NCBI RefSeq assembly: GCF_009914755.1
Contig: NC_060930.1
From: the human T2T-CHM13v2.0 reference genome, Homo sapiens
DNA: 64,000 nucleotides
Reading direction: 5' to 3' (one strand)
The stretch's first letter is position 1; every line of letters begins with the position of its first letter. Positions 40,114 to 43,066 of the stretch are shown here, in pieces. Made by a program: the position numbers and the translations under genes. A model generated the notes under the pieces. It was not told where the DNA came from and did not search any database. It saw nothing but the letters and a program-made list of their open reading frames with translations.

Positions 40114-40132
40114 TATTTTTGCATTTTTTTTT

Positions 40133-40319
40133 AATTTATAAAGAAAAGAGGTTTAATTGGCTCATGGTTCTGCAGGCTGTACAGGAAGCATGGCAACACT
40201 GCTTGGCTTCTGGGAAGGCGTCAGGAAACTTACAGTCATGGTAGAAGCGGAAACGGGAGCAGGCACTTCACACGGCCAGAGCAGGAAGAAGAGAGATTGA
40301 GGTGGAAGGTGCCTCACAC
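40133..40319 (-). mobile_element. MST (MaLR) LTR fragment, probable L1 3'-transduced sequence
   Basis: MST-type text lacking both LTR termini. On the minus strand it ends 19 nt after ATTAAA (40157-40152) in an A-run and lies inside the L1 TSD. Confidence 0.85.
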
Positions 40320-41709
40320 TTTTTTTTTTTTATTATTATACTTTAAGTTTTAGGGTACATGTGCACATTGTGCAGGTTAGTTACATATGTATACATGTGC
40401 CATGCTGGTGCGCTGCACCCACTAACTCATCATCTAGCATTAGGTATATCTCCCAATGCTATCCCTCCCCCCTCCCCCCACCCCACCACAGTCCCCAGAG
40501 TGTGATATTCCCCTTCCTGTGTCCATGTGATCTCATTGTTCAACTCCCACCTATGAGTGAGAATGTGCGGTGTTTGGTTTTTTGTTCTTGCGAGAGTTTA
40601 CTGAGAATGATGATTTCCAATTTCATCCATGTCCCTACAAAGGACATGAACTCATCATTTTTATGGCTGCATAGTATTCCATGGTGTATATGTGCCACAT
40701 TTTCTTAATCCAGTCTATCATTGTTGGACATTTGGGTTGGTTCCAAGTCTTTGCTATTGTGAATAATGCCGCAATAAACATACGTGTGCATGTGTCTTTA
40801 TAGCAGCATGATTTACAGTCATTTGGGTATATACCCAGTAATGGGATGGCTGGGTCAAATGGTATTTCTAGTTCTAGATCCCTGAGGAATCGCCACACTG
40901 ACTTCCACAATGGTTGAACTAGTTTACAGTCCCACCAACAGTGTCAAAGTGTTCCTATTTCTCCACATCCTCTCCAGCACCTGTTGTTTCCTGACTTTTT
41001 AATGATTGCCATTCTAACTGGTGTGAGATGGTATCTCATAGTGGTTTTGATTTGCATTTCTCTGATGGCCAGTGATGGTGAGCATTTTTTCATGTGTTTT
41101 TTGGCTGCATAAATGTCTTCTTTTGAGAAGTGTCTGTTCATGTCCTTTGCCCACTTTTTGATGGGGTTGTTTGTTTTTTTCTTGTAAATTTGTTTGAGTT
41201 CATTGTAGATTCTGGATATTAGCCCTTTGTCAGATGAGTAGGTTGCGAAAATTTTCTCCTATTTTGTAGGTTGACTGTTCACTCTGATGGTAGTTTCTTT
41301 TGCTGTGCAGAAGCTCTTTAGTTTAATTAGATCCCATTTGTCAATTTTGTCTTTTGTTGCCATTGCTTTTGGTGTTTTGGACATGAAGTCCTTGCCCATG
41401 CCTATGTCCTGAATGGTAATGCCTAGGTTTTCTTCTAGGGTTTTTATGGTTTTAGGTCTAACGTTTAAATCTTTAATCCATCTTGAATTGATTTTTGTAT
41501 AAGGTGTAAGGAAGGGATCCAGTTTCAGCTTCCTACTTATGGCTAGCCAGTTTTCCCAGCACCATTTATTAAATAGGGAATCCTTTCCCCATTGCTTGTT
41601 TTTCTCAGGTTTGTCAAAGATCAGATAGTTGTAGGTATGTGGCATTATTTCTGAGGACTCTGTTCTGTTCCATTGATCTATATCTCTGTTTTGGTACCAG
41701 TACCATGCT
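40320..41709 (-). mobile_element. L1PA2-type 3' (non-inverted) segment
   Basis: T-tail, young 3'UTR with GAG (not ACA/ACG) at the Ta-diagnostic site, and ORF2 C-terminal peptides. Confidence 0.95.
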
Positions 41710-43066
41710 TAACCAGGAAGAAGTTGAATCTCTGAATAGACCAATAACAGGAGCTGAAATTGTGGCAATAATCAATAGTTTACCAACCAAAAAGAGTCCA
41801 GGACCAGATGGATTCACAGCCGAATTCTACCAGAGGAATTCGGTAGAGGAGGAACTGGTACCATTCCTTCTGAAACTATTCCAATCAATAGAAAAAGAGG
41901 GAATCCTCCCTAACTCATTTTATGAGGCCAGCATCATTCTGATACCAAAGCCGGGCAGAGACACAACCAAAAAAGAGAATTTTAGACCAATATCCTTGAT
42001 GAACATTGATGCAAAAATCCTCAATAAAATACTGGCAAAACGAATCCAGCAGCACATCAAAAAGCTTATCCACCATGATCAAGTGGGCTTCATCCCTGGG
42101 ATGCAAGGCTGGTTCAATATACGCAAATCAATAAATGTAATCCAGCATATAAACAGAGCCAAAGACAAAAACCACATGATTATCTCAATAGATGCAGAAA
42201 AAGTCTTTGACAAAATTCAACAACCCTTCATGCTAAAAACTCTCAATAAATTAGGTATTGATGGGACGTATTTCAAAATAATAAGAGCTATCTATGACAA
42301 ACCCACAGCCAATATCATACTGAATGGGCAAAAACTGGAAGCATTCCCTTTGAAAACTGGCACAAAACAGGGATGCCCTCTCTCACCACTCCTATTCAAC
42401 ATAGTGTTGGAAGTTCTGGCCAGGGCAATTAGGCAGGAGAAGGAAATAAAGGGTATTCAATTAGGAAAAGAGGAAGTCAAATTGTCCCTGTTTGCAGACG
42501 ACATGATTGTATATCTAGAAAACCCCATTGTCTCAACCCAAAATCTCCTTAAGCTGATAAGCAACTTTAGCAAAGTCTCAGGATACAAAATCAATGTACA
42601 AAAATCACAAGCATTCTTATACACCGACAACAGACAAACAGAGAGCCAAATCATGAGTGAACTCCCATTCACAATTGCTTCAAAGAGAATAAAATACCTA
42701 GGAATCCAACTTACAAGGGACGTGAAGGACCTCTTCAAGGAGAACTACAAACCACTGCTCAAGGAAATAAACGAGGATACAAACAAATGGAAGAACATTC
42801 CATGCTCATGGGTAGGAAGAATCAATATCGTGAAAATGGCCATACTGCCCAAGGTAATTTACAGATTCAATGCCATCCCCATCAAGCTACCAATGACTTT
42901 CTTCACAGAATTGGAAAAAACTACTTTAAAGTTCATATGGAACCAAAAAAGAGCCCGCATTGCCAAGTCAATACTAAGCCAAAAGAACAAAGCTGGAGGA
43001 ATCACACTACCTGACTTCAAACTATTTTTGCATTTTTTAAGAGATGGGGTCTCATTCTGTTACTGA
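41705..43066 (+). pseudogene. Uninterrupted L1 ORF2p fragment (453 aa): RT core without endonuclease or C-terminal domain
   Basis: ORF track shows [32 protein letters not shown] and KYLGIQL with no stop. In-frame ATG at 41705. No evidence of expression. Confidence 0.8.
41711..43025 (+). mobile_element. Inverted 5' segment of the same L1 (twin priming)
   Basis: Sense ORF2 from aaccaggaagaagttg to ctgacttcaaactat, ending about 25 nt upstream (L1 coordinates) of where the antisense segment starts. TSD TATTTTTGCATTTTTT at 40114-40129 and 43023-43038. Confidence 0.95.

What the first reader, a model, noticed from the sequence alone, without database searches (positions are those of the whole stretch)
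40114..43038. L1PA2 insertion carrying an apparent 3' transduction processed at a captured LTR poly(A) signal
Seen: the 16-mer TATTTTTGCATTTTTT occurs at 40114-40129 and 43023-43038. It encloses the L1 and also 187 bp of MST LTR (40133-40319) lying beyond the L1's own A-tail. On the minus strand the order is L1 3'UTR, A12, MST fragment starting agtgtg, ATTAAA, 19 nt, A9, TSD. The fragment lacks both LTR ends, and the right TSD ends in a canonical TTTT/AA endonuclease site. Known: L1 reads through its weak poly(A) signal and mobilises 3' flanks, and MaLR LTRs carry a poly(A) signal near their 3' end. Inference: the parent L1 sits in sense orientation inside an MST LTR, so the 187 bp is a barcode for its source locus and sibling insertions. 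Caveat: the second A-run is only 9 nt and overlaps the TSD.
Basis: partly seen in the sequence, partly recalled or inferred. Interest (0 to 1): 0.8.

Follow-up and report, generated by a model that had tools for sequence, protein, structure and literature searches.

The report
L1 insertion carrying a chr13 LTR tag
An old, truncated and partly inverted L1 retrotransposon copy on chromosome 6 dragged along about 190 bases copied from a retroviral-type LTR on chromosome 13, which is an ordinary example of a well-known process, although the parent L1 is no longer at the source site.

Summary
The exact 16-mer TATTTTTGCATTTTTT flanks one composite insertion (40130-43022), and the right copy sits at a TTTT/AA nick site.

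On the minus strand the insert reads:
- an inverted L1 ORF2 piece
- the L1 3' end
- A12
- an LTR piece of about 188 nt
- ATTAAA, then 20 nt
- two or three untemplated A's, then the TSD

It fits twin priming, with a 25-nt gap in L1 coordinates.

A whole-genome search found one near-identical copy of the tag, at T2T chr13:51,989,250-51,989,441 (190/192). The next best match is 87%. That chr13 copy is a complete 420-nt solo LTR and continues on both sides of the tag, so it is the source. It carries no L1, no young L1 lies within 10 kb either side, and no sibling carries the tag.

The tag's 5' edge in the source is a TTTT/AA site. The same site holds an independent Alu-type, L1 or short insert in 20 of 24 other family copies examined.

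Best reading (about 0.78): a 3' transduction from a parent L1 that was never fixed. Main rival (about 0.15): an RNA-level chimera formed by template switching or ligation.

This is an ordinary instance of a known process.

The parts
39962..40100 (-). Left flank: a 7SL-derived (Alu-type) monomer. Together with the right flank it forms the pre-existing target.
   Evidence: Rfam Metazoa_SRP match, 54.9 bits, E 2.2e-12, below the gathering score. Sequence read.
40114..40129 (.). Target-site duplication, left copy (on the L1's 3' side). Its T6 end is the primer that annealed to the poly(A).
   Evidence: Exact 16-mer, one of 2 copies in the window.
40130..40132 (-). Remnant of the terminal poly(A): 2-3 A's on the minus strand that the chr13 source does not template. 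Position 40132 could also be the last A of the LTR piece.
   Evidence: The source reads AAATTA then CCCAG; the window reads AAATTA, then AA, then the TSD.
40132..40319 (-). The transduced tag: the internal part (about positions 184-371 of 420) of an MST-type MaLR solo LTR whose original lies on chr13.
   Evidence: 190/192 identity over 40132-40323 to chr13:51,989,250-51,989,441. The next best genomic match is 87%.
40152..40157 (-). ATTAAA poly(A) signal of the LTR (TTTAAT on the + strand), 20 nt upstream of the tag's end.
   Evidence: It is the only ATTAAA/AATAAA in the sense strand of the source LTR, and 23 of 28 other family copies keep it at the aligned place.
40320..40331 (-). A12 between the L1 3' end and the tag: the parent L1's own tail. 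Its last four A's (40320-40323) also match the source LTR.
40332..41709 (-). L1 3' segment in direct orientation, about L1 positions 4642-6020 (end of ORF2 plus the 3' UTR).
   Evidence: 98.0% identity over 1391 nt to the full-length L1 copy L044. The coordinate origin comes from the 5' UTR motif at L044 1545.
41710..43022 (+). L1 ORF2 segment inverted relative to the rest, about L1 positions 3306-4616. It holds a small private 6-nt insertion with substitutions at about 41837-41846.
   Evidence: 97.8% identity over 1318 nt to L044 on the opposite strand. Detail of the small insertion.
43023..43038 (.). Target-site duplication, right copy. Its first three bases (TAT) also match the next L1 bases, giving microhomology at the internal priming site.
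   Evidence: the L1 alignment runs on to 43025.
43039..43179 (-). Right flank: a second 7SL-derived (Alu-type) monomer. Its first two bases, AA, complete the TTTT/AA nick site.
   Evidence: Rfam Metazoa_SRP match, 30 bits, E 3.4e-5, below the gathering score. Sequence.

Best explanation
This is one L1 retrotransposition event of roughly L1PA2 age, and it carries a 3' transduction.

Proposed sequence of events:
1. A parent L1 sat in sense orientation inside an MST-type solo LTR on chr13. It had inserted at the LTR's TTTT/AA site, where the LTR sense strand reads ...GTTGTTT/AAAAGTGTGAGG.
2. Transcription ran through the L1's own weak poly(A) signal. It continued through 188 nt of LTR and was cleaved and polyadenylated 20 nt after the LTR's ATTAAA.
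3. ORF2p nicked the chr6 target at TTTT/AA, in the T-rich stretch between two Alu-type monomers. The T6 end primed on the poly(A), close to the body of the RNA.
4. A second, internal priming event on the other target strand (twin priming) produced the inverted ORF2 piece.
5. The result was sealed between 16-bp target-site duplications.
6. The parent allele on chr13 never became fixed and is absent from this genome.

Shown directly: the single TSD, the nick site, the order of the parts, the inversion geometry, the unique chr13 origin of the tag, and its end at the poly(A) site.

Inferred: that a parent L1 existed at chr13, and that the two parts were joined by read-through transcription.
For: - One exact 16-bp TSD encloses everything, and the nick site is TTTT/AA.
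- The order is L1 3' end, A12, tag, ATTAAA, 20 nt, untemplated A's, TSD.
- The tag has exactly one near-identical relative: chr13, 190/192, against 87% for the next best. That copy is a complete 420-nt solo LTR with TG..CA ends and CTCAT/CCCAT flanks, and it extends past the tag on both sides. The direction of copying is therefore chr13 to chr6.
- Where the tag ends, the source reads CCCAG and the window reads A's. This points to an RNA polyadenylated at that site.
- The tag's 5' edge in the source is a perfect TTTT/AA site.
- The same site in other family copies is a recurrent L1-endonuclease target. Of 24 other loci with CACAC followed by T8, 18 carry an Alu-type element, 1 an older L1 in the same sense orientation, and 1 a short insert after which the LTR resumes. 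The other 4 are unclassified or uninterrupted.
- The ages agree. The two tag differences are one derived change on each copy, about 0.5% per lineage. The L1 has about 0.8% private changes, 21 events in 2689 nt.
- Background rates from passages read: about 10% of reference L1 and SVA insertions are estimated to carry 3' transductions (PMC4862182). Source elements can be absent from a reference assembly: one of the three most prolific L1 sources in 3202 genomes is non-reference (PMC9311842).
- Cis preference makes an all-L1 RNA the expected template (background section of PMC2104539).
Against: - The source LTR on chr13 is uninterrupted in this assembly, and no young L1 lies within 10 kb on either side. 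Only three hits of 75-79% identity were found. The parent is therefore hypothetical.
- No sibling insertion with the tag appeared among the 40 candidates scored of 2587.
- The terminal A-run is very short: 2-3 A's beyond the TSD, 9 at most if the TSD's own A's are counted.
- The tag's 5' edge is also the only run of four or more A's in the LTR upstream of the poly(A) site. A reverse transcriptase switching templates by A/T microhomology would favour the same spot, so the edge does not separate the two models.
- A positive control failed. The LTR piece downstream of the older L1 that sits at the same site on chr2 has no near-identical copy elsewhere; the best match is 84%.
Confidence: 0.78

Rival explanations
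1. An RNA-level chimera with no parent L1 at chr13. ORF2p began target-primed reverse transcription in trans on a cellular polyadenylated RNA that ended at the chr13 LTR's poly(A) site. It copied 188 nt, then switched template at the A4 run onto the poly(A) tail of an L1 RNA. Alternatively, the two RNAs were ligated before reverse transcription. Twin priming then followed as in the main explanation.
For: - The source LTR carries no L1, and no sibling exists.
- The junction has 4 nt of A microhomology, and it is the only A4 run in the LTR upstream of the poly(A) site.
- Template switching and RNA ligation are accepted routes to L1 chimeras with the same orientation and a single TSD (passages of 10.1101/2025.02.02.635956; background section of PMC2104539).
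Against: - In the described chimeras the 3' part, which is the first template, is mostly the LINE, and the 5' part is a full-length copy of the second RNA (PMC2104539). Here the order is reversed and the L1 part is truncated.
- This route needs a trans event on a non-L1 RNA followed by a second rare step, against cis preference.
- The edge is not only an A4 run but a complete TTTT/AA site, one that is used by 20 of 24 other retro-insertions in family copies.
- Non-fixation of the parent explains the missing L1 without any extra mechanism.
Confidence: 0.15
2. Two independent insertions. A retrocopy of the LTR RNA or a pre-existing LTR fragment was already at the chr6 site, and the L1 landed beside it later.
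For: None directly. The only support is that ape orthologues could not be examined here.
Against: - One exact 16-bp TSD encloses both parts, and there is no second pair of duplications.
- The tag is 99% identical to chr13, whereas true family paralogues are at most 87%. It is therefore about as young as the L1, not an old resident LTR.
- The neighbouring resident LTR at 43219-43593 is only 74-81% similar.
Confidence: 0.03
3. A DNA-level event: chr13 DNA was captured during break repair, or there was gene conversion between an LTR fragment and the chr13 LTR. No RNA carrying the tag was involved.
For: None found.
Against: - The tag ends 20 nt after the LTR's only ATTAAA, and untemplated A's follow it.
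- Its other end abuts a pure A12 run.
- The whole insert has the hallmarks of TPRT: a TSD and a TTTT/AA nick site.
Confidence: 0.02

Closest known systems
L1 3' transduction (read-through of the L1 poly(A) signal into flanking DNA). The primary papers by Moran 1999, Goodier 2000 and Pickeral 2000 are recalled; I saw them only in the reference list of PMC2768975. The process as described in passages of PMC9311842 and 10.1101/2021.07.12.451456.
   Same: L1 3' end with its own A-run, then unique foreign sequence, then a downstream poly(A) signal, then a second A-run, all inside one TSD at a TTTT/AA site. The foreign sequence maps to one other locus, which lacks the terminal A's.
   Different: The source locus has no L1 in this assembly. 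The second A-run is nearly gone. The transduced sequence is itself a repeat, an internal LTR piece, and is recognisable as a copy only because 99% stands out against a family background of 87% or less.
Twin priming / L1 5' inversion (Ostertag and Kazazian 2001, recalled; mentioned in passages of 10.1101/2025.02.02.635956).
   Same: The 5' segment is inverted and the 3' segment is direct. They are adjacent in L1 coordinates (about 3306-4616 and 4642-6020) with a 25-nt gap. There is a 2-nt overlap at the inversion junction and a 3-nt overlap (TAT) with the TSD.
   Different: Nothing unusual. The only added feature is that it occurs together with a transduction.
Template-switch chimeric retrocopies such as U6/L1 (features listed in the background section of PMC2104539; passages of 10.1101/2025.02.02.635956).
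   Same: Copies of two different RNAs are joined head to tail in the same orientation, flanked by one pair of direct repeats, with microhomology at the junction.
   Different: In the known class the LINE is the 3' part (the first template) and the 5' part is a full-length cellular RNA. Here the L1 is the 5' part and is truncated, and the 3' part is a fragment of an LTR-terminated RNA.
MaLR (THE1/MST-type) LTR poly(A) signals acting as transcript terminators. The family label is recalled and was not tested with a classifier.
   Same: The LTR's single ATTAAA is followed 20 nt later by the cleavage point used here. 23 of 28 family copies keep the hexamer.
   Different: Here the signal ended an L1 read-through RNA (inferred), not the LTR element's own transcript. 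The tag begins upstream of where an LTR-initiated RNA would be expected to start; that placement is my inference from a TATA-like TTTAAAA at the edge.

Membership tests
L1 3' transduction | An L1 3' end with its own A-run, followed by non-L1 sequence in the same orientation. | tested here: met
   Minus strand: L1 3' UTR end, then A12 (40320-40331), then the LTR piece.
L1 3' transduction | The extra sequence ends shortly after a poly(A) signal and is followed by A's that the source does not template. | tested here: met
   ATTAAA, then 20 nt, then the end of the tag. The source continues CCCAG while the window has AA(A) and then the TSD. This is weak in length: only 2-3 unambiguous A's.
L1 3' transduction | One target-site duplication encloses the L1 together with the extra sequence, at an L1 endonuclease site. 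| tested here: met
   Exact 16-bp repeat. TTTT/AA at 43035-43040.
L1 3' transduction | The extra sequence maps to one other genomic locus, the source, and the match stops at the terminal A's. This is the confirmation rule used by the RISCI pipeline (passages of PMC3024322). | tested here: met
   chr13:51,989,250-51,989,441, 190/192 identical. The next best match is 87%.
L1 3' transduction | A parent L1 lies immediately upstream of the source sequence in sense orientation. This corroborates the assignment and is not required by every catalogue. | tested here: not met
   The chr13 LTR is uninterrupted, and only 75-79% identical old L1 fragments lie within 20 kb. The assignment therefore stays at 'works like' with a lost parent inferred. 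Membership is probable but not proven.
L1 3' transduction | An empty orthologous site in an outgroup lacks both the L1 and the tag and shows one TSD copy. | not testable with these tools
   No primate genome other than the window's own assembly is held (note: 'It has no relatives here').
Twin-priming 5' inversion | Inverted and direct segments adjoin in L1 coordinates with a small gap or overlap, the inverted end lies next to the 5' TSD, and everything sits within one TSD. | tested here: met
   The L044 mapping gives 4845-6155 (inverted) and 6181-7571 (direct), a 25-nt gap. The inverted segment's high-coordinate end abuts the TSD at 43023.
Template-switch chimeric retrocopy | The 3' part is a 5'-truncated copy of the first template, mostly a LINE, and the 5' part is a full-length copy of another RNA (PMC2104539). 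| tested here: not met
   Here the 3' part is the LTR-RNA fragment. The 5' part is the L1, which is truncated and inverted.
Template-switch chimeric retrocopy | [quoted passage not shown] | tested here: met
   This feature is shared with 3' transduction, so it does not discriminate.
MaLR (MST-type) solo LTR at the source | Complete LTR with TG..CA ends, short flanking duplication, many diverged relatives | tested here: met
   L002 1452-1871 is 420 nt, with TG..CA ends in the sense orientation and CTCAT/CCCAT flanks (4 of 5 bases match). There are 38 further scored hits at 81-87% identity. The subfamily name MST was not tested.

The most novel reading that the evidence does not exclude
The tag was not carried by read-through from a parent L1. 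Instead, ORF2p started in trans on a cellular RNA that ended at the chr13 LTR's poly(A) site, and after 188 nt it jumped at an A4 microhomology onto the poly(A) tail of an L1 RNA. That would make a 'reverse-order' chimera, with the L1 as the second template, fixed in the human genome. Some apparent parentless 3' transductions would then really be template-switch products.
Probability: 0.13. Interest if true: 0.4.

Novelty: new member of a known kind. Interest (0 to 1): 0.15.

Why it matters
It matters little beyond bookkeeping. It is a clean worked example showing that a transduced tag can be traced even when the tag is itself a repeat, because 99% identity stands out against a family background of 87% or less. 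It also shows that the source site can be empty in a complete assembly.

Catalogues that require a parent element at the source, as the T2T catalogue appears to since it reports 'identified parents', would miss or down-rank events like this one.

The empty chr13 site gives a concrete place to look in ape and pangenome assemblies for an extinct or polymorphic active L1. No gene or regulatory element is affected. The insertion lies in unannotated intergenic DNA according to the annotation supplied with the finding.

Tried and rejected
- **Neighbouring LTR as source.** I rejected the resident LTR at 43219-43593 (same orientation, about 180 bp from the insertion). It is only 74-81% identical to the chr13 LTR.
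- **L1 near the chr13 source.** I searched 10 kb on each side. Only three old fragments of 75-79% identity turned up.
- **Siblings.** The tag search scored 40 of 2587 candidates and found none above 87% apart from the window itself and chr13. The junction pattern search (CACAC plus T8, up to 2 mismatches) gave 24 other loci. All are independent events in other family copies, not siblings.
- **Positive control.** I looked for offspring of the older L1 that sits at the same LTR site on chr2 (L046). Nothing matched above 84%.
- **Literature on how often transduction sources lack a parent.**
  - Szak 2003 and Pickeral 2000 are not held.
  - The passages I read in PMC3024322 and PMC4862182 give no such fraction.
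I therefore cannot say whether this event is already catalogued.
- **Tag edge as a discriminator.** The tag's 5' edge does not separate read-through from template switching. It is both the only TTAAAA and the only A4 run in the LTR upstream of the poly(A) site.
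Full report
**Observation**

The 16-mer TATTTTTGCATTTTTT occurs exactly twice in the 64-kb window, at 40114-40129 and 43023-43038. With one mismatch allowed, 100 dinucleotide-preserving shuffles gave a mean of 0.10 matches, and none gave two. The bases on either side of each copy differ, so the repeat is exactly 16 bp.

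The right copy is followed by AA. The + strand therefore reads TTTT/AA at the point where the T-rich strand would prime on a poly(A) tail.

Both flanks are 7SL-derived (Alu-type) monomers on the minus strand: 39962-40100 (54.9 bits) and 43039-43179 (30 bits). Both scores fall below Rfam's gathering threshold. The target was the T-rich stretch between them.

**Anatomy of the insert (40130-43022)**

Read on the minus strand, from 43022 down to 40130, the insert holds the following parts.
- **Inverted L1 piece, 43022-41710.** This is L1 ORF2 sequence in inverted orientation, meaning it reads as sense on the + strand.
- **Direct L1 piece, 41709-40332.** This is the end of ORF2 and the 3' UTR, in direct orientation.
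- **A12, 40331-40320.**
- **LTR piece, 40319-40132.** It contains ATTAAA at 40157-40152, 20 nt before its end.
- **Terminal A's.** Two or three A's follow, and then the TSD, which itself begins with A6.

I mapped both L1 pieces onto a full-length genomic L1 copy, L044. Its 5' UTR motif lies at 1545, so L1 position equals the L044 coordinate minus 1539.
- The inverted piece maps to about L1 3306-4616 (97.8% over 1318 nt).
- The direct piece maps to about L1 4642-6020 (98.0% over 1391 nt).
- A 25-nt gap separates them. There is a 2-nt overlap at the inversion junction and a TAT overlap with the TSD.

This is the standard geometry of twin priming.

**Where the tag comes from**

The window's own genome, the human T2T assembly, could be searched. 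The 190-nt tag matched itself and one other place at 99%, contig 13:51,989,250-51,989,437. The third-best hit was 87%. Forty of 2587 first-look candidates were scored.

A direct alignment gives 190/192 identical bases over window 40132-40323.

At chr13 the sequence is a complete solo LTR (L002 1452-1871, 420 nt). It has TG..CA ends in its sense orientation and CTCAT/CCCAT flanks, and it is nested in an old L1. It runs on past both ends of the tag.
- Beyond the tag's 3' end it reads CCCAGTCTC... into U5, where the window has A's.
- Beyond the tag's 5' end it reads TTTAAAC... on the displayed strand, where the window has the T12 run.

So chr13 is the original and chr6 is the copy, and the copy ends at a poly(A) site.

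The hexamer is the only ATTAAA/AATAAA in the LTR's sense strand. It is kept in 23 of 28 other family copies.

**What is missing**

The chr13 LTR is not interrupted by an L1. In the 20 kb centred on it, the window's L1 sequences find only three old fragments of 75-79% identity. No third copy of the tag exists among the scored candidates.

It is therefore met in its second half only.

**Age**

The two differences between tag and source polarise to one derived change on each copy.
- At 40148 the window has G, as do 25 of 28 relatives. The chr13 T is therefore derived.
- At 40248 the window has C, while chr13 and 23 of 28 relatives have G. The window's C is therefore derived.

That is about 0.5% per lineage.

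Against nine close genomic copies, the window's L1 has 10 private events in 1312 nt and 11 in 1377 nt, about 0.8%. Because the nine copies were chosen for similarity, this is a low estimate.

The L1 is 98-99% identical to the 39 other copies scored. At the 3' UTR trinucleotide that I recall as diagnostic for the human-specific Ta lineage, it reads GAG rather than ACA (the diagnostic itself is recalled).

All of this fits an insertion several million years old of L1PA2-like type. No classifier confirmed the subfamily name.

**Mechanism**

The single TSD, the nick site, the twin-priming geometry and the end of the tag at a poly(A) site show one target-primed reverse transcription event. The template ran L1 3' portion, A-run, chr13 LTR fragment, poly(A).

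Two routes could make such a template.

*(a) Read-through from a parent L1 (3' transduction).* The parent would sit in the chr13 LTR. This route needs an L1 insertion at the LTR position where the sense strand reads GTTGTTT/AAAAGTGTG, which is TTTT/AA on the priming strand. That is a perfect endonuclease site.

The site is used repeatedly in other family copies. A genome-wide pattern search for the LTR edge followed by T8 gave 24 other loci, with reversed-pattern controls at 0. They break down as follows.
- 18 carry an Alu-type element.
- 1 (chr2:68.5 Mb) carries an older L1 in the same sense orientation.
- 1 has a short insert after which the LTR resumes.
- 4 are unclassified or uninterrupted.

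The pattern selects for such insertions, so this shows precedent and not frequency.

*(b) Template switching or RNA ligation between an LTR-terminated cellular RNA and an L1 RNA.* The edge is also the only A4 run in the LTR upstream of the poly(A) site. A microhomology-guided switch would land in the same place, so the edge cannot decide between the routes.

**Weighing the two routes**

What decides, for now, is background knowledge.
- About 10% of reference L1 and SVA insertions are estimated to carry 3' transductions (passage of PMC4862182).
- Described template-switch chimeras have the LINE as the first, 3' template and a full-length second RNA as the 5' part (background section of PMC2104539; passages of 10.1101/2025.02.02.635956). 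That is the opposite order to this case, and the L1 here is truncated.
- Route (b) also needs a trans event, against cis preference.
- Active source L1s can be absent from a given assembly. One of the three most prolific sources in 3202 genomes is non-reference (passage of PMC9311842). A parent that was polymorphic millions of years ago would usually have been lost.

My estimates are about 0.78 for the transduction, 0.15 for the RNA-level chimera, and a few per cent for two-event or DNA-level origins. The last two are contradicted by the single TSD, the youth of the tag and the poly(A) hallmarks.

**Weak points**

- The parent is inferred and has not been seen.
- The terminal A-run is only 2-3 nt beyond the TSD.
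- There are no siblings.
- A positive control failed: the LTR piece downstream of the chr2 L1 has no near-identical copy, the best being 84%.

**Novelty**

3' transduction, twin priming and LTR poly(A) capture are all textbook processes. This is one more instance. Its only slightly unusual features are that the tag is itself a repeat and that the source site is empty in a complete genome.

The T2T repeat paper reports 183 highest-confidence L1 3' transductions with identified parents, plus lower tiers in a supplementary table that I could not open (passages of 10.1101/2021.07.12.451456). I cannot say whether this locus is listed there.

Interest is low.

Noticed in passing
window 41837-41846: The inverted L1 piece carries a private cluster of changes: a net 6-nt insertion plus 3 substitutions (GAGGAATTCGGTAGAGG where nine other copies have GAGGTACAAGG). 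The new GAATTCGG is the reverse complement of CCGAATTC about 15 nt upstream, which suggests a small templated (hairpin or strand-switch) mutation. NCBI's repeat mask has a gap here.
   Followed up: partly
window 43219-43593: A resident THE1/MST-type LTR lies about 180 bp from the insertion, in the same orientation as the tag. It is only 74-81% identical to the chr13 LTR, so it is not the source and its closeness is a coincidence. Further family fragments lie at 10013-10116, 49493-49849 and 51384-51461.
   Followed up: yes
L046-L049 and L054-L073 (24 loci genome-wide; e.g. L046 = contig 2:68,506,846): The TTTT/AAAC motif at the TATA-like box of MST/THE1-type LTRs is a recurrent L1-endonuclease target. 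20 of 24 loci with CACAC plus T8 carry an Alu-type element (18), an L1 (1) or a short insert (1) exactly there, all with the A-tail abutting GTGTG.
   Followed up: partly
L046 1200-1700 (contig 2:68.5 Mb): An older L1 sits in sense orientation at the same LTR site, which is the arrangement proposed for the lost chr13 parent. An Alu has replaced that LTR's U5 end. No offspring carrying its LTR tag was found; the best match is 84%.
   Followed up: yes
window 39962-40100 and 43039-43179: The target consists of two tandem 7SL-derived monomers, both resembling the Alu right arm by my reading, rather than a standard dimeric Alu. Sub-threshold Rfam hits to mir-1268 and mir-3135 fall inside them, as expected for Alu-derived miRNA families.
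   Followed up: no
L002 1200-2100 (contig 13:51.989 Mb): The source solo LTR is nested in the 3' part of an old L1 that lies in the opposite orientation. Its flanks, CTCAT and CCCAT, look like a decayed 5-bp duplication.
   Followed up: no
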